DNA of 64,000 nucleotides from Moniliella sp. 'wahieum' (lineage: Eukaryota): positions 124,001 to 188,000 of the forward strand of contig RSEE01000047.1 in the NCBI GenBank assembly GCA_003971905.1, given 5' to 3'. Under the pieces are notes generated by a model. That model was not told the DNA's origin and did no database searches. It saw only the letters and a list, made by a program, of their open reading frames with translations. Shown here one piece after another: positions 11,688-35,270 of this stretch. The first letter of the stretch is position 1; every line of letters begins with the position of its first letter. A program made the position numbers and the translations under genes.

Positions 11688-12370
11688 TCAAGTGCTCGTT
11701 TCAGTTGTTAGACGTCTCGCATCAACCTCAGCCTGTTCGCGTCGAAGCTCGTTTTGAACCGCCTTGTGTTCCTCCGAGGCCTTGGCCACCGACTCTTCGA
11801 TTTCCTCTTGCACCAATTCGGGGTGGGTGACGGCGTGCTTGTGTTGGATCTTGCGCTCCAGCTCGTAAAAGCTCTTCATGACGGGGTCCATGATCATGTC
11901 CACCGGGTACATCCGATCGATGGCCTGGTCCAGCTCCTGTTTCTTGCGCTGCGCAGGTGTCAAGCGCGCCGCTTCGGCCTTGGCAGCCGCTTGCTTTGCC
12001 TCTTCGTCCGCAGGGAAAAGCCCCAATCGGTCGGTGTTCCATTCGTCCCGCGTTACCGCCGGCCTCAAGGCGGCAATCTTCTTTTGGCGAGCTGGAGGCG
12101 TTCCCGATATTCTTCCAGCGCATCCCCATACAGATCATACACACACACGGAACATCCCGACATGCAGCAGTCGCCCGGGCCAGGCGGGTTGGGTGGCGTG
12201 GGCAACTTGATGTTCCGCACCCACACCGGTGGCGCATTCGTTGCCCCACACCGGGTTGTACCCGCCGCTGGAAATCTTTTCCTCCTTGTCGGCTTCGGCG
12301 GCAGGCGGTTTGGCCTCGGCGCGCAAGCGAGGCCACCGGTCAGAAAGATTGAGCCGGCGCAAGCGCAGAG
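11688..12370 (-). CDS. Oxidoreductase-like (OXLD1/UPF0651/DPC25-type) domain exon; apparently the 3' exon of the COQ8 gene
   Basis: A frame absent from the ORF track reads IKLPTPPNPPGPGDCCMSGCSVCVYDLYGDALEEY (~12210-12110). C-terminal DPVMKSFYELERKI. It is preceded by a splice acceptor (TATAG ending 12371), not by a start codon. Confidence 0.8.
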
Positions 12371-12445
12371 CTATAGAGTTGTGTCACAACAGAACAAAAC
12401 CACAAAAAAAAACAAAATCACATGCCCGTTAGTCATCTTTATTGC

Positions 12446-14342
12446 TTAAACAGGGAGGGGACCAATGCGCACTTTGGTCCTGGGGTAAGGTGTGGAACTT
12501 GCGCATCTGCCCGGAACCAGCAAACGTGTGGAGCCCTCGGGTTGCCGCGACCGAACCAGGCCGGGGGCAGAGAAGCTGCGCGCTGCCTCGCCTTGTGGGT
12601 TAAACTTGTAGCCCCGTGTCACATCGCGCCAAATGTCACCGCAAGGCACTTGGGCTTCGAGCCGCGCGCAGAGCAGGAAGGCACCACTGAGCTTCCGGTT
12701 CAGCGAGTAGGTTTCCGGGGGCGGAGGGGTTTTGCGTTCCCGCAGCATGAGAGGGATGTTGCCACGGACTTTGTCGGTGATATCCTGGCCGGCAAAGTTG
12801 TAGGTTGCGCCGGCAGCGGTGCGGAAGGGGGTGCCGAGCAAGACCATCGAGTCCACGTGTGCTTCCACCATGGCTGGCGACTCTTCACCGGTAAGATAGC
12901 CAATCTTGCGAGACCAATAAGCGCACGCTTCCCGCTCGCCGCTGATGGCAGCCTGGAGCAATCGCAGCCACAAATCAATAAACCGTTGGCTGTACTCGCG
13001 CGTCGCACCAAAGTCAATCAGGCCGACCCGCTCCTGCACCGGGTCCCAGAGAAAGTTGGCATAGTTTGGGTCCGTCTGCATCGTTCGCCATTCAAAGAGC
13101 TCGAGCAAAGCGAGACGCATAATGGCTGAAGCTAAAAGGTTGCGTTGTTCTTGGTCAAGGTGGGCGGAACCTCCTGCGGCAGCAGCACGAGCCAAAGGAA
13201 GGCAGGGACAAACTCGGCGGTCAACACATCCTTTGTGCTCAGTCCGGGCACCACACGCGGTACCGAGAAGATTTTTCCGGCTCCCTTTGGGTCGGATTCG
13301 ACCAGGTGGCGCACCCGCTCCCCCATTCGCGCTTCTCGCACATAGTCACATTCGTCCACCAATTCTTCGGCCATCACCTTGAGCGACGATTCGAGAAACA
13401 GGCCCGGAGGCAAGAGAGACGAGGCGGTCAGGAGCCATTTGAGGTACCCCAAGTCCGAATCGATGCTTTTCCGAACGCCGGGGAATTGGACTTTGACAGC
13501 AACTTTGCGGCCACGAAGCCGAGCAGCGTCCTGCTCGGTCGCCACACCCAGTTCCTCTTTGGTCGCATGATGACTCAGCACAGCACGATGCACTTGCCCA
13601 ATGCTGGCCGCCGCAAAGGGCTGGAGATCAAACTCGGCAAAACGATGTTGCCAGTCATCGCCCAGCTCACGAGTGAGCACGGCGCGAAGCTGAGCTTCAG
13701 GCATAGCGTGTGCGCTGGCCTGCACGCGGGCCAGCACCTGTTCGAGCGGCCCGGGCATGTCGGGACGCACTTGGATGGAGAGAAACTGGCCCACCTTGGC
13801 GCCGCACCCCGCATCGTTGACAGCCGGTCGACCAAGCGGCGCATGTTGCTTTCGCTCATCCACCCGGCCCCGCCCGTGCTTCCAGACACAGCGGCGCCCA
13901 TGGCGCCCCAGGCGAGGCCGGCGCCGAGAGAGCCGTAGTGGAGCAGACGGCCAAAGCGGGAGGCAGGCATGCGCGCCGTCTTGTGTGGCGTGGCACCAGC
14001 ATGATCGGAACAGGCGTGGACGGGGCAGGCGTAGCCGCAGGCGAGGGCGACGCGGCCGCAGAGAAGCTGGTGGACGTCGCTGGTGGGGGGGGTGGCGGTG
14101 GGCGGCCAGCAGCGGGGGCCGAGGGATGGGGCGGGAGCGGTGCAGATGAGGGTGGCAATGGAGCGGGAGGAGACGGAGAGGGAGGAGACGGAGGCGGAGA
14201 CGGAGCCGAGGGAACCGAGGGAGCCGAGGGGGCAGAGGGGCAGCCGAAAGAGACGACGGAGGCAGCTGGAAGCGGAGGCTGCGCTGTGCGATCTGAGCCA
14301 GCGCGCGCCCACCACCACCGCTTCGGCTGTGCTGGGAGGCAT
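12446..14342 (-). CDS. COQ8: COQ8/ABC1 atypical kinase (coenzyme Q biosynthesis)
   Basis: MPASRFGRLLHYGSL, PFAAASIGQVH, VAVKVQFPGV, ECDY.REA, MQTDPNYANF, LIDFGATREY, PPPETYSLNRKLSGAFLLC. Confidence 0.93.
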
Positions 14343-14564
14343 GGCAGTCGACCAGGCAAGAGAGTGTGGAGTGTTTCCCGGTGGTGGTTTTCCCCGTCCG
14401 TCGTATTCATCAGCACCCCGAAGAAGACACCGCCCCTCCCCAGCCGTGACGTCAGCCCACGTGAGCGGCCGACGCTTACGCAAGCGGGCGCGCAGCCCCT
14501 TGTGGCGCTGCCACCACGGCCGGGGTTATCGACCCAGCTCCCACCCACCCCACCACACACCACC

Positions 14565-16752
14565 ATGGACGTCGGGCGGGCGGTGCATGCCTACATCGAG
14601 CGCGTGCTCGGCGGCGTGGCCGGGATGAAGGTGCTGCTGCTCGACCAGCACACCACTCCCATCATCAGCACCGTCCTCACCCAGTCCGCCCTGCTCGCCG
14701 AGCAGGTCTACCTCACCGACCGCGTCGACCACACCGCGCGCGAACGCATGCCCCACCTCGCCTGCATTGCCCTCCTCCGCCCCACCCCCGCCAGCATCAG
14801 TGCGCTGGTGACCGAGTTGCGCGAGCCCAAGTATGCGTCCTACCACCTCTTCTTCACCAACGTCGTCCCCCGCGCCTCGATTGAGGCCCTGGCTGAGGCC
14901 GACATTCATGCCGTCGTGCATGACGTGCAGGAATACTTTGCCGACTATGTCCCGCTCACCCCCTCCCACTTCACCCTCGATGCCCCGTACCCCCCACCGC
15001 CTCTGGCGCGCGACCCCTCTCGCGCCGAGTCCACCGCCAAGCGCGCGGCCGGCCACGATTTTCTCGATGCGTGGGACCCCGACGATTTGCAGCGGCATGT
15101 CTCGGGGCTGGTCGCTGCGCTGCTAAGCGTACGACGTCGCCCCGTTATCCGCTACGAGCGCATGAGTGGAATGGCACGCACGCTGGCTGCCGAGCTGCAA
15201 CGCCATGTCGGCGGCCCACCCGCCCCGGCCTCGGCGTCTGCCCCACCGGCTCCCGAGACAGCCAGTGCGCGCAGCCTGTTTGACACCCTTCCCATGCCCC
15301 AGGATGGTGGCACACTGCTCCTAATCCTGGACCGAAGAAACGATCCTGTTACGCCTCTTCTTACCCAATGGACGTACCAAGCGATGGTGCATGAACAACT
15401 CGGCATCCAACATGGTCGGGTCACGCTGTCCCGCGACCCAAACGGGGGAACCGAGGCAAACGAGGCCGCGCCGAAAGAAGTGGTTCTTTCTGCCGAAGCT
15501 GATCCGTTCTTTGGGGCGCACATGTACGCAACTTTGGGGACTTGGGTGCGCTGATCAAGCGATACGTGGAAGAATACCAATCGCGCACAGCCCACAATGC
15601 GCGCATCGAGACTGTGGCCGACATGAAGAAGTTTATTGAGGATTACCCTCAGTTCCGCAAACTGGGCGGCAACGTTTCCAAACACGTTGCTATTCTTGCT
15701 GAGCTGTCACGGCAAGTAGAGTCGCGCCGACTACTCCAAGTGTCCGAGCTGGAGCAATCCCTCGCGTCCGTTGAGAGTCATGGGGCGGACCTGCAAGCTG
15801 TCAAAGAGATGATTGATTCGACCATCGAGCCTGAAGCCAAGCTACGGCTGGCCATCCTCTATGCTCTCCGCTACCAACGTCATGGTGGGAACCAAATCAA
15901 AGCGGTGGCCAGCAGCTTAAAGACAATGGCTCTCTGAGCAACAAGTCTCCGTACGTCTCCTCGTTGTCCCCTGCCCCTCGGTACTGACTGACGTTCTCGT
16001 TTCCTAGCTGATTTGGGTTACATTGGCTATTGCCGGTGCGTCCCAGCGTCAAGATGATCTTTTCTCCAACGAGGTCTCTTTTCCCGAGGGAAGTCGGCGC
16101 TGAAAGGGCTGAAAGGGGTGGAGAACGTGTACACCCAGCACACACCCCATCTCCTCCGTACCATTGAGAGTCTCGACCGAGCCCGATTGAAGGAGATGTC
16201 CTACCCTCGTGCTGGGACCGACCCCTACACGCCCTACCAAGGCGCATCTACCCCTAATGCCACTGCCCCCGAACTGGGTACCGTTCCACGGCCTAGGGAA
16301 CTGATCCTGTTCATTGTCGGCGGCTCCACCTACGAAGAAGCACGCACCGTCGCTTTACTCAATACCCACCTGGCTCAGGGCGGTGTTGGCTTGGGTACCC
16401 AGCCCTCGGGATCGGGCACCAACACTCCCACCACCAGCGCCTCCGGGGCCCAACCCGGTCGCATCCTCCTCGGAGGCACGTCCGTCCTCAACTCGACTGC
16501 CTTTCTGTCCCTCTTGTCCGACGCGGCCTATAGTCCTGCCCCGGCGTTCCCAGCTAGCATCCTTCGCCCCTCGGGGGCCTCCTTGGGACCTGGGCCCCCA
16601 AGGCCCCCGGCGCCGCCAATGTCTTGACGGACGATCCACGCGCCCTCATCGCTCCGGACCGTCTCGTGGACGCTGCCGATGGGGCCAAGAACATTGCCCG
16701 AGGGTTGTTTGAAAATCTGCGCAAAGGCGTTGAAGGCTTCTCCCAACTATGA
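14565..16752 (+). CDS. VPS45: Vps45 (Sec1/Munc18 family); intron near 15950-16007
   Basis: MKVLLLDQHTTPIIS, LLLILDRRNDPVTPLLTQWTYQAMVHE, FRKLGGNVSKHV, ENVYTQHTP, FIVGGSTYEE. Confidence 0.93.
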
Positions 16753-18077: not shown

Positions 18078-19515
18078 ACCCGTTCAACTTGGAAACAAAA
18101 ACCATGCTGTTCATCTCCGCTGATCCGGTCCTAACCTCGATACCTTCTCAGCTGTATACGCACAGTGGGCATCACGGTCTCCAGCTATCACTGTGATATG
18201 GAGACCTACAACCGCGAATGTCCGTGCTGGGTACCCCCACGATGGCCAAATTACCGGTCCTCCGCGTATCCCTACATTTTCCTTTGCCTTTTCCTTTCAC
18301 CATCAGCTCACCCCTCTTGAAAAAGGCTGGCGATGTTACGGCCCATATCCTCTCTGTCCACTTCTGATTCTCCCTTGCGCGTTCTTGATTCTTCTGTCCC
18401 CCCTCCCCCCCTCCCTGATCCCTGAATGACGCAGTTTGCTGCGTGGGTACCTGATAGTATCCCCGTACAGTGCAGATAGCATTTTTCATGCTTTGATATG
18501 ATGGGCATCCCCCTTTTCTCTTTCCCCGCGAAACTATAGGGTAGTAGCCAGTGATAGCATGCCATGAGAAGTGGCAAAAGCTCTTCGAGTTCAAATGGAG
18601 TCTACTGGGCGGCGAAGAGGTCTGGTTCTCTTCATGCGATCTGGCCAGTCGGATCTCAGTGCTACTGACCCGGTCAGAGGCCTCTATATGCTAGAGACGG
18701 ACATCATGATGGCCCGACATGTATGGGTGGTAGGATATACCATTCATTGGTCCATCAGGGGTGCAAAAGACAACTATTATACCGTAGTCTCGTCTACCAT
18801 GTGGGCCAAGCTGACTATACTGCAACGGAGAAAAGAACGGAGCGAGTAGGTCTTCCTGTGCCGGACGCCCTCTTCCGACAGGGCACCCTTCTCGTTCTCA
18901 TCTGGAGCAACCCAAAGCTCTGGGTAGGGTACCGTCGATCCAGCAGCCCAAAGAAAAAAATGTGAGGCGCAGCGGTGAAGCGCGGTGGCGAGGGGGCGAG
19001 GGGGCGGCGGCGCTCAGTGTTGAAAGCGTTGTGAAATTTCTAGCACGGCAACATGTTGAACTCGCCTATAGCTCCGAGTCCGCACCATTGCTCCACACCA
19101 TTATAGGCGATGCATCCCCCACTGTATAACAGTTGCCTTTGTAAACCCATTCAGGACTACATCACGGTTGCAGTAACGCCTATGCTCATAGGACCACGTT
19201 GAACTGATAGCCTCTCATATCTGCTGAGCTGCAATGCTCATCTGCTCACGGCTCCTCGCCACTCTCATACGGCGAAGGTGGGGTAGGGGAGTGGTAGAAG
19301 CCAGCATCCAGGTCCGTTCGGCGAGAGCAGTCTATTTCGCGTAAGTACCCCAAAGAATTTATGAAATTGAAAATTGGTGGGCGCGATAACCCTATCATAA
19401 ATGCTGCGGCACATATTTCACTGCAAACCCTACCTTCGGTTTCCGTCTCGTCGTCGGCAGCTTCCACTCCCAGGTCCGCTCTCTCCAGCAACCAGCTCGC
19501 CAAGCACACATCAAG

Positions 19516-19642
19516 GTGAGTACCAACCTCTGCCACTCCGCCCGTCAGAGGGTGTGGCGCAGATTGACGGCGTCCCCAGATCCCACCCCTCCCGCGACCA
19601 CTGTGCGTCCTGAACAGAGCTAACCAGGCCCTCTGGAAGCAG
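19516..19642 (+). other. 5'-UTR intron of RPL34
   Basis: AAG|GTGAGT donor, GCTAAC branch at 19619-19624, CAG acceptor one base before the ATG at 19644. Confidence 0.7.
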
Positions 19643-27300: not shown

Positions 27301-27538
27301 TTCTTTTTTTCAATTACCAACCCAAACATGTGTCGTGCAGCAGCCGAGACCTGAGGCCGGAGGTCTGATAACAGGTTGCATCGAGAACATGTTACACGGG
27401 TAACAGCCGTGGGCTGGACTCGACGCAAGCCGCAGGCTTTCGACGCGCCAACCACCTCCATCCTCTCCAGCTGGTCCGACTTCGCCTCGGATCCCGCAGC
27501 CTCCCCACCTCTCCACAGTATCCCTCTGCGTCCCCACC

Positions 27539-28570
27539 ATGCCGATTCCCACCATTACGTTCAAGTCCAACCCGGACCGACCTGCCCCCGTCCTCGCGTT
27601 TGGCACTGGGAGTGTGCACAAGGCGACCGACTCGGTGGCCTCGACGCTCGAGGCGCTCAAGCATTTTAACTTTCTTGATACGGCCCAAGTGTACCAGACT
27701 GAAATCCATACGGGCAAGGCCATCAAGCAGAGTGGCATCCCTCGTGAGAAACTTTGGATTCTGAGCAAGAGCTTTGAGATCAAAAAGGGGGAGACGTATC
27801 CGGCGGTACAGACCACGTTGGATGAACTTGGGATCGATTTCCTGGATGCCTTTTTGATTCATGTCCCGCCCCGCGGGCTGAACGGAGGGCTCACCAACAT
27901 GGAGGCATGGAAATTGATGGAGGCCGTCCGTAATAACGGCCATGCTCGGTACGTTTGAGTCTCCTGCACCACAAAGAAACCCCATCACGACGCCAAAAAC
28001 TAATTTTGTCTCTCAGCGTCTTGGGTGTGAGCAACTTTTTGGCACAGGACTTGCTTGACATCCTGGATGATCCCACCCAGGAACATCCCATCGAAATCAA
28101 TCAGATCGAATATGTGAGTGTCCCCTCCTGAACCCTGTTCTCTTTGTTGTTGGGAGTCCTGACAAGAGCTCCCGACGGTAGCATCCGCTCATTTGGAACG
28201 ATCCCAAGATGGTCGAGTCGCTCAAGGTGATGAAGCAGCATGGAATCACAGCGCTGGTGTATGTGCGCTGTCTCCTTTGGTATATAAGGATCAGATCAAG
28301 GAAGACCATCTCTCCCCAGTGGTTGAGGCAGTGGCCAAAGCTCATGGCTGGACCGAGGCCGAGACACTGATCCTCTGGGCCCGACAAAAGACCCAAGGCA
28401 TCGTCATCACCACCTCGACGTTTTCCACTCCGGCCCACACGGATCGGATGAACCGGATTGTGGAACTATTCAGCTCGGGTGCATCCTTGTCAGAGCAAGA
28501 GCTTGCTCAGATTGATGAGGCGGGGGCAAAATCGGGTCCGTTGAAGACTCGTTGCCTCAAATGGTGGTAG
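27539..28570 (+). CDS. Aldo-keto reductase; two introns
   Basis: LAFGTGS, LDTAQVYQTE, SGIPREKLWI.SK, LDAFLIH.P, LGVSNF, NQIEY. Confidence 0.85.
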
Positions 28571-28622: not shown

Positions 28623-30287
<1,665 letters not shown>

Positions 30288-33302: not shown

Positions 33303-34421
33303 ATGCTCCCACCCGAGCTCGCCGACTGGGGCAGCATCCTCACTCTTGTGTTGGCGGGTGCATGTCCAATGCCGTCGCCCTCGAGCAGTGCACTGTGCTT
33401 CTGCCCCACGCCGGCTCGCTTCTCACCCTCAGTGCGTTTGTGGGCGTAACCATCTGCTTTCTGCCCTCTCAGCTGGTTGTAGGCAAGCATGGCGTGTGGC
33501 TCCGGCCACCGCAGGTTCCCCTCTCCCGCTGGGCCGTGCTGGTGGCCATGTTTTTTACCACCAACTGGATGAACAACCTCGCGTTTGCCTTTCGCGTACC
33601 CATGCCGATCCACATCATTTTTCGCTCGGGGGGCTTGGTGGTCAATATGCTCATCGGCTATACGATAGCCGGCAAAACGTACGCCCAGCAGCCTCTTTAC
33701 CGGACTGATGATACTAACCGATCGTTCTGGTTGGCAGGTACAATATCGCGCAAGTCCTGTCTGTCCTTCTCGTATCGGGCGGCATCACCATCTCCACCCT
33801 CTCGGCCGGGCACAAGAGCCAAGGCGGCCCCGTTTCTCCCGAGGCAACCACCAAGTATTTGGTAGGCATTGGATTGTTGGCCCTGAGTTTACTGCTGAGT
33901 GGGTTTATGGGTCTGTGGCAGGAGCGCACCTTCCTCACTTATGGGCGTGGAAGATGGAAGGAATCGCTCTTCTATACTCACTTTCTCGCACTGCCCTCTT
34001 TTTTCTCCTCGCTCCCTCGCTGCAGAACGAGGTGCGCTCGGCGTGGGCTGCCCAGGGTTTTTCTTCCCCTTTTTGCCAGTGCGGTAACCCAAATCGTCTG
34101 TATCGGGGTGTCAATCGCCTGACGACCAAGGTCAGTTCCGTCAGCGTGGTCATGATTCTTGCCGTCCGCAAAGCAGCTTCACTCGTTTTGTCGGTTGCCT
34201 GGGCTTATGCTCGGGGAGCAGCCGTGCCTGATCCTTTACGACTCTGGCTGGGTACAGCAATGGTTCTTGTTGGTACCGTTACCTATGCTCGGGCCAGCTC
34301 GCCCGCTCGCCCTCACAAGCAGATCAAAGCCGAGCGTCAAATCGAGCAGCCCGACAACGCCGGTGAGGCTGTGAGCAGTGGGGTAGCACCGTTGCTCCAG
34401 CATGCTTCCCCAAAGGGGTGA
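33303..34421 (+). CDS. YEA4: UAA-family nucleotide-sugar transporter (Yea4/SLC35B4-like); intron ~33679-33738
   Basis: SNAVALE, GSLLTL..FV, NNLAFAFRVPMPIHIIFRSGGL, GLWQE, WKESLFYTHFL, GVNRL, RKAASL.LS. Confidence 0.85.
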
Positions 34422-35198: not shown

Positions 35199-35270
35199 TG
35201 GACGAACAGGGAATTGAACCCCGGACCTCATGCATGCTAAGCAAGCGCTCTACCCCTGAGCTATCCGCCC
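35199..35270 (-). tRNA. tRNA-Ala(AGC)
   Basis: GGGCGGATAGCTCAGGGGTAGAGCGCTTGCTTAGCATGCATGAGGTCCGGGGTTCAATTCCCTGTTCGTCCA; G3:U70 pair; T-run terminator downstream. Confidence 0.95.

What the first reader, a model, noticed from the sequence alone, without database searches (positions are those of the whole stretch)
11688..14342. COQ8 appears spliced in frame to an OXLD1/DPC25-like Cys-motif protein: candidate tandem mitochondrial polyprotein
Seen: the COQ8 frame runs past its usual end (…VTRGYKF) into a 102-nt intron on the minus strand (donor GTGCGC at 12472, branch TGACTAAC 12435-12428, T-rich tract, first AG ending 12371). Splicing it puts the as-sequenced COQ8 frame directly in frame with PPNPPGPGDCCMSGCSVCVYDLY. 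That exon has no room for its own promoter. One further indel near 12085 joins it to the ORF ending at 11688. The linker carries mitochondrial-processing-like motifs: ARSFS in frame, and RGLHT and RKFHT in the adjacent frame. Established: CCxSGCxxC marks the Oxidored-like family (human OXLD1, yeast YPL107W/DPC25; function poorly defined), and tandem precursors such as Arg5,6 and S. pombe Rsm22-Cox11 are cleaved after import. Inference: this is a COQ8-OXLD1 precursor, a gene-fusion hint linking this possible metal/Fe-S binder to coenzyme Q synthesis. I do not know whether it has been described.
Basis: partly seen in the sequence, partly recalled or inferred. Interest (0 to 1): 0.85.

Follow-up and report, generated by a model that had tools for sequence, protein, structure and literature searches.

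The report
COQ8 fused to OXLD1-like gene
This fungal locus joins the coenzyme-Q factor COQ8 and an OXLD1-family mitochondrial protein into one two-exon gene, an arrangement shared by a whole group of smut-related fungi; it probably makes a precursor that is cut in two after import, but cleavage is untested and this copy carries sequencing errors.

Summary
On the minus strand, a COQ8 (ABC1) gene is followed by a 102-nt intron-like stretch (12472-12371) and an Oxidored-like (PF09791) exon ending at 11688. The fusion is not peculiar to this window. ABC1+Oxidored-like proteins are annotated in 18 named Ustilaginomycotina species, including U. maydis UMAG_02464. None appeared among Pucciniomycotina, Agaricomycotina or Ascomycota hits.

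Homology shows the linker is read in the adjacent frame, which carries RGLHT, RKFHT and NLSDRWPR. The gene has at least five frame breaks, and neighbouring genes have the same kind, so the assembly is unpolished.

The basic linker motif R-x-[LFI]-H-[ST] occupies the position of the presequence of stand-alone family members. This supports an internally processed tandem precursor, but cleavage is untested.

New context: the Oxidored-like family includes Ct-NDUFV3, a complex I accessory subunit of Chaetomium thermophilum. Known composite precursors often join unrelated proteins. Both points weaken the inferred link to CoQ synthesis.

I found no paper describing the fusion. Interest is moderate.

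The parts
12473..14342 (-). Exon 1. It holds the putative start ATG (14342-14340), a Pro/Ser-rich N-terminal region, the COQ8 conserved region and the first part of the basic linker. It is interrupted by frame breaks.
   Evidence: Frame map from tblastn of 7 homologues. Frameshift-aware alignment to P0001, 77% identical. Sequence read.
12602..13991 (-). COQ8 (UbiB/ABC1 atypical kinase-like) conserved region. It contains KVGQ, AAASIGQVH, VAVKVQFPG, MQTDPNYANFLW and LIDFGATRE, all intact.
   Evidence: Pfam ABC1 in two ORFs. tblastn HSPs 13991-12602. COQ8A/COQ8B are the best PDB hits, E 1.8e-48 to 2e-47. Motifs read; the motif names are recalled.
12473..12601 (-). Basic, presequence-like part of the linker. 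Its conserved reading frame is the one holding RPGSVAATRGLHT (RGLHT 12539-12525) and MRKFHT (RKFHT 12503-12489; ATG at 12506).
   Evidence: P0001 reads ...SPGSVAATRGLHT in one frame with its COQ8. An R-x-[LFI]-H-[ST]-type motif is found in 24 of 26 fused homologues.
12563..12567 (-). Run of five C where the COQ8 frame and the RGLHT frame meet. A single missing base is the simplest explanation.
   Evidence: plus my own reading of the three frames.
12371..12472 (-). Putative 102-nt intron, phase 1. It has donor GTGCGC, branch ACTAAC at 12433-12428, a T-rich tract and the first AG at 12372-12371. It is AT-rich within a GC-rich locus.
   Evidence: All three frames are closed inside it. The window's UAA-transporter gene has an intron with a similar GTACGC...ACTAAC...AG (33679-33737). 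There is no transcript evidence.
11688..12370 (-). Exon 2: the OXLD1/Ct-NDUFV3-family protein. It comprises the NLSDRWPR motif, a variable acidic stretch, the Oxidored-like domain and a helical tail. The stop TGA is at 11690-11688.
12327..12350 (-). NLSDRWPR motif, the conserved N-terminal motif of mature family members. After splicing it is in the same frame as MRKFHT.
   Evidence: An NL-x-x-R-[WF]-type motif occurs in 23 of 26 fused homologues and in 44 of 92 full-length stand-alone representatives.
12220..12254 (-). Two copies of CCGGTGTGGG (12254-12245 and 12229-12220), 25 nt apart. Each reads P-V-W in its own frame. This is the likely site of the frame switch back to the Oxidored-like frame.
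   Evidence: Read. The frame switch is bracketed between 12340 and 12226.
12083..12208 (-). Oxidored-like domain (PF09791). The motif CCMSGCSVC lies at 12169-12143.
   Evidence: Pfam E 6.1e-17. The C-C-M-S-G-C-x-x-C columns are invariant in 50 family members. It aligns to residues 234-275 of 7zm7 chain o.
11691..12094 (-). C-terminal tail with TRDEWN and MKSFYELERK motifs. It is joined to the domain through a frame break near 12082-12094, in an A-rich run.
   Evidence: tblastn HSPs 12086-11838. Alignments. The tail is confidently helical in the model of homologue P0138.
13782..13809 (-). Frame break in MRGAA-KVGQ, with a missing base near 13799.
13195..13207 (-). Frame break in TAEFVP-LPLAR, with a missing base near 13203.

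Best explanation
One two-exon gene (14342 to 11688, minus strand) encodes a composite mitochondrial precursor. In order, it contains COQ8, a basic presequence-like linker, and a complete OXLD1/Ct-NDUFV3-family protein.

Shown:
- Both domains are present in this order.
- The same fusion occurs across the three classes of Ustilaginomycotina sampled.
- The downstream part has no start codon of its own that would include its conserved N-terminal motif, so it can only be reached by splicing.
- The frame breaks are of a kind that also affects neighbouring genes.

Inferred:
- The intron is spliced.
- After import through the N-terminal signal of COQ8, the mitochondrial processing peptidase cuts at or near the conserved R-x-[LFI]-H-[ST] motifs in the linker.
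- Cleavage releases COQ8 and a separate OXLD1-like protein. By homology with Ct-NDUFV3, that protein may sit on the NADH-oxidising tip of complex I.
- The fusion would then serve co-expression and co-import. It need not imply a shared pathway.
For: - Domains.
- Fusion in relatives:
  - 6 of the 120 listed COQ8 hits of 233-742 aa carry both Pfam domains.
  - 21 of the 120 listed hits of 743-2120 aa carry both, all within the best 30 rows.
  - These cover 18 named species of Ustilaginomycetes, Exobasidiomycetes and Malasseziomycetes (taxonomy).
  - 6 of the 150 best representatives for the Oxidored-like ORF are fusions.
- Linker:
  - The motif is present in 24 of 26 fused proteins.
  - 16 of the 21 proteins with both motifs have no Met between the COQ8 end and the NL motif.
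  - The motif-bearing segment is net basic (+0.13 per residue) and the rest is acidic (-0.06 per residue), in 20 of 21.
- Stand-alone relatives begin with a leader such as ...RRFRHS..., followed by RGGQNLSxRY. The linker motif therefore sits where their presequence ends.
- Human OXLD1 is imported and processed in a membrane-potential-dependent way (PMC8664129, passage read).
- MPP cleaves Arg5,6 and Atp25 internally at presequence-like junctions (PMC8734313, passages read).
- The closest relative, P0001, has no Met at the position of the window's ATG 12506.
- Frame breaks without room for an intron also occur in the Sec1 gene (about 15527-15533) and the UAA-transporter gene (about 34104).
- All COQ8 motifs are intact.
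Against: - I have no transcript data and no cleavage data.
- The donor GTGCGC is not the common GTRAGT form.
- The branch-to-AG distance (57 nt) is longer than at the other RCTAAC sites that look like introns in this window (3-38 nt).
- The window copy needs at least five corrections to be read through.
- Two annotated Malassezia COQ8 models (P0006, P0008) stop just after the motif.
- Some unnamed stand-alone ORFs start near the motif (P0138).
- 5 of 21 fused proteins have a Met that could start a separate product.
- The residue after the hydrophobic position is His, which is not the Ser/Ala of the textbook R-3 motif (recalled). No presequence or MPP-site predictor was available.
Confidence: 0.6

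Rival explanations
1. The gene is fused, but the protein stays in one piece. COQ8 would carry the OXLD1-like module on a long disordered tether, and the conserved basic motif would act as an internal targeting or binding element rather than a cleavage site.
For: - Linkers of 93-245 residues with poorly conserved middle parts are present in all 26 fused proteins.
- Nothing I ran shows cleavage.
- Ct-NDUFV3 itself has a long low-complexity N-terminal part, so an N-terminal extension is tolerated in this family.
Against: - The conserved motif sits exactly where stand-alone relatives end their presequence.
- Human OXLD1 is processed on import (PMC8664129).
- The mitochondrial fusions examined in PMC8734313 carry presequence-like segments and MPP motifs at their junctions.
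Confidence: 0.22
2. COQ8 and the OXLD1-like gene are two adjacent genes that gene callers merge. The downstream gene would start at ATG 12506 (MRKFHT...), use the same intron, and have its promoter inside the COQ8 coding region.
For: - ATG 12506 is in the conserved linker frame.
- Unnamed stand-alone ORFs begin near the motif (P0138).
- P0006 and P0008 end after the motif.
Against: - 16 of 21 fused homologues have no Met upstream of the NL motif.
- The closest relative, P0001, has none at this position.
- There is no non-coding room for a promoter.
- Several unnamed stand-alone ORFs start with pyrimidine-tract-like translations (P0125, FLFLPAP...). This suggests ORF callers starting inside an intron rather than true N-termini (inference).
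Confidence: 0.12
3. The locus is a decaying pseudogene, and the frame breaks are real.
For: There are at least five frame breaks in about 2.6 kb.
Against: - Unrelated neighbouring genes show the same kind of break.
- There are no in-frame stops in the homology-supported frames.
- All COQ8 motifs and the Cys motif are intact.
- Identity to P0001 is 77%.
- COQ8 is normally indispensable for respiration (established knowledge).
Confidence: 0.04

Closest known systems
ABC1+Oxidored-like gene models of Ustilaginomycotina (for example Mycosarcoma/Ustilago maydis UMAG_02464, P0282, 956 aa; Tilletiaria anomala P0270, 1081 aa)
   Same: They share the domain order, the R-x-[LFI]-H-[ST] linker motif, the NL-x-DRWPRS motif, the CCMSGC domain and the ...AFLEMERK tail. 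T. anomala is the best named hit, 56% identical over the COQ8 part.
   Different: The window's copy has an intron at the junction. Frame breaks interrupt its reading frame. At about 850 codons it is also shorter. Whether the other species have this intron could not be checked, because no eukaryotic DNA was available.
Composite mitochondrial precursors cleaved by MPP: Arg5,6, Atp25, S. pombe Rsm22-Cox11 and Etp1 (PMC8734313, PMC5063612)
   Same: Two proteins that are separate in other organisms are encoded in one ORF, with a presequence-like segment at the junction.
   Different: Cleavage is shown for those precursors and only inferred here. COQ8-OXLD1 is not in the list of such proteins given in the PMC8734313 passages I read.
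Ct-NDUFV3, accessory subunit of Chaetomium thermophilum complex I (PDB 7ZM7 chain o; PMC9699679)
   Same: It belongs to the same family. The Oxidored-like ORF matches at E 7.4e-6. The family profile matches at E 6e-13 over chain residues 170-377, which include the C-terminal motif. The sequence in supplementary table S5 carries CCMSGC.
   Different: It is a stand-alone protein with its own N-terminal leader. Whether the Ustilaginomycotina protein binds complex I is unknown.
Human OXLD1 (C17orf90)
   Same: It carries the same named domain. It is imported into mitochondria and processed (PMC8664129). Knock-down lowers complex I and V activity in H9c2 cells (PMC12413873, abstract and one results section read).
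   Different: It is not fused to COQ8A or COQ8B. I did not align it here, because no stored sequence was available.
Human COQ8A/ADCK3 and COQ8B (PDB 4PED, 5I35, 9TVK)
   Same: They are the best solved relatives of the upstream part (E 1.8e-48 to 2e-47). The alignment ends at the window's ...VTRG.
   Different: They have no C-terminal Oxidored-like extension.

Membership tests
UbiB/ABC1 atypical kinase family, COQ8 subgroup | Pfam ABC1 domain above the gathering score | tested here: met
   135.6 and 41.5 bits against a cut-off of 22.9, in two abutting frames covering profile positions 2-151 and 165-241.
UbiB/ABC1 atypical kinase family, COQ8 subgroup | Signature motifs: KxGQ, the Ala-rich loop, the catalytic Lys, the QTDPNxxN loop and DFG (motif list recalled, not taken from a call) | tested here: met
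   KVGQ, AAASIGQVH, VAVKVQFPG, MQTDPNYANFLW and LIDFGATRE were read in the translations.
UbiB/ABC1 atypical kinase family, COQ8 subgroup | Closest characterised relatives are COQ8 rather than another ABC1 paralogue | tested here: met
   All 4 PDB hits are COQ8A or COQ8B. Named hits include 'protein kinase COQ8' and 'related to ABC1'. The bacterial UbiB equivalog models score far below their cut-offs (84 against 487 bits), as expected for a eukaryotic member.
Oxidored-like (PF09791; OXLD1 / Ct-NDUFV3 family) | Pfam domain above the gathering score, with the C-C-x-S-G-C-x-x-C motif | tested here: met
   61.5 bits against a cut-off of 24. CCMSGCSVC lies at 12169-12143. These columns are invariant in 50 relatives.
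Oxidored-like (PF09791; OXLD1 / Ct-NDUFV3 family) | Full-length likeness: the N-terminal NL-x-x-R-[WFY] motif and the C-terminal A-F-x-x-x-E motif | tested here: met
   NLSDRWPR (12350-12327) and MKSFYELERK are present. The NL motif occurs in 44 of 92 stand-alone representatives. F213 and E217 are invariant and A212 nearly invariant.
Composite (tandem) mitochondrial precursor | One ORF encodes two proteins that are separate elsewhere | tested here: met
   This holds at family level: 26 fused proteins were aligned, and stand-alone COQ8 and stand-alone Oxidored-like proteins exist in other fungi. In the window itself it holds only after splicing and after reading through the frame breaks.
Composite (tandem) mitochondrial precursor | Presequence-like segment with an MPP site at the junction | tested here: inconclusive
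   A conserved basic segment with R-x-[LFI]-H-[ST] is present and is positionally equivalent to the leaders of stand-alone relatives. No iMTS or MPP predictor was available, and the motif is not a textbook R-2/R-3 site.
Composite (tandem) mitochondrial precursor | Cleavage into two mature polypeptides inside mitochondria | not testable with these tools
   This needs import or MPP assays, or tagged protein.
Composite (tandem) mitochondrial precursor | N-terminal matrix-targeting signal | not tested
   The N-terminal 350 nt are Pro/Ser-rich and also frame-broken. I did not analyse them.
Complex I accessory subunit at the NDUFV3 site | Sequence homology to Ct-NDUFV3 | tested here: met
Complex I accessory subunit at the NDUFV3 site | Physical presence in complex I of this organism | not testable with these tools
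   This needs complexome profiling or a structure.

The most novel reading that the evidence does not exclude
The fusion is a true Rosetta stone. On this reading the OXLD1/Ct-NDUFV3-family protein, with its invariant four-Cys motif, works with COQ8. It might be a redox or metal partner of the CoQ-synthesis complex. Alternatively it might be a physical bridge between CoQ synthesis and the NADH-oxidising tip of complex I. Making both from one precursor would fix their ratio. This would give the orphan human protein OXLD1 a testable role at the CoQ-complex I interface.
Probability: 0.15. Interest if true: 0.8.

Novelty: new member of a known kind. Interest (0 to 1): 0.5.

Why it matters
COQ8 and OXLD1 are both incompletely understood mitochondrial proteins. 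A fusion kept across an entire fungal subphylum gives a cheap, testable lead in a tractable model, U. maydis UMAG_02464.

- If the precursor is cleaved, it adds a clade-wide example to the short list of MPP-processed tandem precursors.
- If the two parts also work together, it would tie an orphan human protein to CoQ or complex I biology.
- Ct-NDUFV3 belongs to the OXLD1 family. This matches the report that OXLD1 knock-down lowers complex I activity. I found no paper connecting the two.

For this window, the practical message is that the assembly needs polishing before gene calling.

Tried and rejected
- Complex prediction: COQ8 domain (P0270 residues 332-800) against the Oxidored-like domain plus tail (950-1081). 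No verdict, score 0.00 in two runs. The tool did not use the alignment. This is not evidence either way.
- Foldseek of the P0138 model against the PDB: 0 matches at E<=0.001, and 7zm7_o is not in the part of the match list the tool showed. I cannot say which part of Ct-NDUFV3 is ordered on complex I.
- The search for homologous proteins with the C-terminal region of P0029: it found only itself, so it gave no census.
The sources and names of the unnamed hits therefore stayed unknown.
- NCBIfam: only bacterial UbiB models, far below their cut-offs. Nothing matched the Oxidored-like part.
- Plus-strand ORFs across the locus: 0 Pfam families in 7 plus-strand ORFs. The two short alternative minus-strand frames also gave none.
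- Frameshift-aware alignment in the poorly conserved linker: it proposed many shifts that differ between guide proteins. I trust it only in conserved blocks.
- My first reading of the AA_kinase+NAT ORF at 28623-30287 as ARG5,6: dropped, because no ArgC domain lies downstream.
- Literature: no paper on a COQ8-OXLD1 fusion, on UMAG_02464, or on PF09791 function. The searches cover open-access PMC and bioRxiv only.
Full report
WHAT IS THERE

On the minus strand, Pfam finds an ABC1/COQ8 domain split over two abutting frames:
- ORF 13132-14406: E 2e-39, profile positions 2-151 of 244.
- ORF 12446-13345: E 1.1e-10, profile positions 165-241.

An Oxidored-like domain (PF09791) lies in ORF 12065-12370 (E 6.1e-17). 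The best solved relatives of the upstream part are human COQ8A and COQ8B (E 1.8e-48 to 2e-47). The 7 plus-strand ORFs across the locus match no Pfam family.

THE INTRON

- Donor GTGCGC lies at 12472.
- ACTAAC lies at 12433-12428, followed by a T-rich tract.
- The first AG lies at 12372-12371. The stretch is 102 nt.
- RCTAAC is rarer in the window than in shuffles: 16 sites against 32.2 ± 5.8 expected.
- Several of the 16 sites sit in obvious introns. One is a 59-nt intron in the UAA-transporter gene with the similar donor GTACGC (33679-33737).
- All three frames are closed inside 12472-12371.
- After the AG there is no ATG upstream of the conserved NLSDRWPR motif. The downstream exon can therefore be expressed only by splicing to the upstream exon.
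- Weak points: the donor is not the common form. The branch-to-AG distance of 57 nt exceeds the 3-38 nt seen at the other intron-like sites. There is no transcript evidence.

FRAMES

tblastn with seven homologues shows that the gene changes frame repeatedly:

| Stretch | Frame |
|---|---|
| up to about 13782 | -2 |
| 13809-13207 | -1 |
| 13207 to about 12565 | -3 |
| 12587-12519 (PGSVAATRGLHT) | -2 |
| 12220-12074 (Oxidored-like) | -3 |
| 12086-11838 (tail) | -2 |

The intron length is a multiple of three.

However, the closest relative P0001 (77% identical) reads its COQ8 straight into ...SPGSVAATRGLHT. In the window, frame -2 spliced at the same intron gives MRKFHTLPQDQ-T-LRLRRLNLSDRWPRL. 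The NL-x-DRWPR motif is conserved throughout the family. The linker is therefore really read in frame -2, and the as-sequenced continuity of frame -3 results from two offsetting breaks:
- One break lies at a run of five C (12567-12563).
- The other lies between 12340 and 12226. Two copies of CCGGTGTGGG sit 25 nt apart there (12254-12245 and 12229-12220), and each reads P-V-W in its own frame.

Frameshift-aware alignment places the other breaks near 13799, 13203 and 12082-12094.

These breaks are not signs of decay, for three reasons:
- Neighbouring genes show breaks with no room for an intron. Sec1 profile position 269 ends at about 15533 in one frame, and position 268 starts at about 15527 in another. 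UAA-transporter profile positions 251/252 abut at about 34104 in two frames.
- All COQ8 motifs and the Cys motif are intact.
- No stop lies in the homology-supported frames.

The window is an unpolished assembly.

THE FUSION IN RELATIVES

- Of the 120 best COQ8 hits of 233-742 aa, 6 carry both Pfam domains.
- Of the 120 best hits of 743-2120 aa, 21 do, all among the first 30 rows.
- The other 9 of those 30 rows fall into three groups:
  - Three are Microbotryum proteins and one is from Cyphobasidiales.
  - P0271 (unnamed) and Malassezia psittaci P0277 break off within the CCM motif. The unnamed P0283 ends in the linker. These look like truncated fusions.
  - Tilletia walkeri P0292 is a partial model, and the unnamed P0285 was not inspected.
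- None of the remaining 90 rows has the second domain. They are mostly Ascomycota and Mucoromycota, with one chytrid and one Agaricomycotina yeast.
- The named carriers are 18 species. They span Ustilaginomycetes (Ustilago, Sporisorium, Pseudozyma, Melanopsichium, Testicularia, Violaceomyces), Exobasidiomycetes (Tilletia, Tilletiaria, Parajaminaea) and Malasseziomycetes (four lineages checked).
- Searching from the other side, the Oxidored-like ORF found 757 representatives at E<=0.001. Of the best 150, six are fusions: P0124, P0153, P0173 and P0181 by Pfam (4 of the 19 longer ones scanned), P0039, and the 5'-truncated P0156.
- The rest are stand-alone proteins, mostly of 50-390 aa.

The fusion is therefore old, probably dating to the ancestor of Ustilaginomycotina, and the window belongs to that clade. 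Its best named hit is Tilletiaria anomala at 56%.

THE LINKER

In 26 aligned fused proteins the linker is 93-245 residues long. One search gives these counts:
- 24 of 26 have an [RK]-x-[FLIMY]-[HY]-x motif soon after the COQ8 domain, often twice. The two misses have ALFHT and RHFST.
- 23 of 26 have the NL-x-x-R-[WF]-type motif 15-66 residues later.
- In the 21 with both motifs, the motif-bearing segment is net basic (+0.13 per residue) and the rest is net acidic (-0.06 per residue). This holds in 20 of 21.
- 16 of those 21 have no Met between the COQ8 end and the NL motif.

Stand-alone relatives start with a leader rich in Arg, Ser and Thr. It often ends in a motif such as RRFRHS, RPNFHTS or RRNFHLS, and is followed by RGGQNLSxRYxRLEKS. 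The NL motif is present in 44 of 92 full-length stand-alone representatives.

The fused linker therefore keeps what was the presequence of the downstream protein. Keeping it across the subphylum argues that it still works. The simplest such role is as an internal MPP site:
- MPP cleaves Arg5,6 and Atp25 in this way, at presequence-like junctions (PMC8734313 and PMC5063612; abstracts and passages read).
- Human OXLD1 is imported and processed in a potential-dependent manner (PMC8664129, passage read).

This step is inference.

WHAT THE DOWNSTREAM PROTEIN IS

The only PDB match of the Oxidored-like ORF is chain o of 7ZM7, 7ZMB and 7ZMG, which are structures of Chaetomium thermophilum complex I (E 7.4e-6). 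A profile of 50 family members matches its residues 170-377 at E 6e-13.

Supplementary table S5 of PMC9699679 lists Ct-NDUFV3 as 380 aa, with the same CCMSGC stretch, 47% coverage and 39 PSMs. The paper places this subunit on top of the peripheral arm, at the NDUFV3 site (passage read). The family therefore includes a bona fide complex I accessory subunit.

A 2025 paper reports that OXLD1 knock-down lowers complex I and V activity (PMC12413873; abstract and one section read). I found no paper connecting OXLD1 with NDUFV3.

An AlphaFold model of the stand-alone relative P0138 is confident (pLDDT above 85) from residue about 100 to the end. It shows two short strands, the Cys loop and three long helices. 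It has no significant PDB fold match.

WEIGHING

- The fused gene is well supported.
- Cleavage is the most economical reading but is untested.
- The inference of a CoQ function is weak. PMC8734313 states that, for the few similar fusions known in baker's yeast, the separate proteins do not function in the same pathway. The family's one structurally placed member also belongs to complex I.
- Against a simple fusion story: two annotated Malassezia COQ8 models end right after the motif (P0006, P0008), and some unnamed ORFs begin there (P0138). Several of those ORFs start with pyrimidine-tract-like translations (P0125). P0001 and P0283 end in such sequence just before the NL motif. I read this as an intron at this junction in several lineages. 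That is an inference from ORF ends only.

NOVELTY

The gene models are public but unremarked. Searches for OXLD1 with coenzyme Q, YPL107W/DPC25, OXLD1 alone, COQ8 with gene fusion, UMAG_02464 and PF09791/Oxidored-like found nothing on the fusion. These searches cover open-access PMC and bioRxiv only.

UNCHECKED

- DNA of eukaryotic relatives.
- Transcripts.
- Presequence prediction.

Noticed in passing
window 15503-15551 (+) and about 34104 (+): The Sec1/VPS45-like gene and the UAA sugar-nucleotide transporter gene each continue the same Pfam profile in a different, abutting frame with no room for an intron. The whole window appears to carry frequent single-base errors, so any ORF-based reading of it needs care.
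   Followed up: partly
PDB 7ZM7 chain o / Ct-NDUFV3 (related sequence, not in the window): The complex I subunit called Ct-NDUFV3 in C. thermophilum is a member of the Oxidored-like/OXLD1 family. No paper in the searched library links OXLD1 to NDUFV3.
   Followed up: yes
window 12254-12245 and 12229-12220 (-): A 10-nt direct repeat, CCGGTGTGGG, occurs twice 25 nt apart. Each copy is read as Pro-Val-Trp in a different frame. A 25-nt duplication, real or from assembly, would explain the frame switch in the linker.
   Followed up: partly
window 28623-30287 (-): A 555-aa ORF carries AA_kinase and NAT (N-acetylglutamate synthase type) domains. None of the 9 minus-strand ORFs of 53-206 aa between 27255 and 28668 matched any Pfam family, so no ArgC domain follows. 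It looks like an ARG2-type synthase rather than the ARG5,6 tandem precursor. An aldo-keto reductase fragment lies on the other strand at 27404-27955.
   Followed up: partly
window 35199-35270 (-): A tRNA-Ala (anticodon AGC) gene.
   Followed up: no
window 14342-14567: The COQ8 fusion gene and the Sec1/VPS45-like gene are divergent, with only about 225 nt between their likely start codons. This suggests a shared promoter region.
   Followed up: no
window 19510-19630 (+): The ribosomal protein L34e gene has an intron with GTGAGT ... GCTAAC ... CAG. It is a useful reference for this genome's splice signals.
   Followed up: no
P0001, P0283, P0125, P0123, P0141 (unnamed relatives): Plain ORF translations of relatives end or begin in pyrimidine-tract-like sequence just upstream of the NL-x-DRWPR motif. 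This hints that the junction intron is conserved in position in some lineages.
   Followed up: partly
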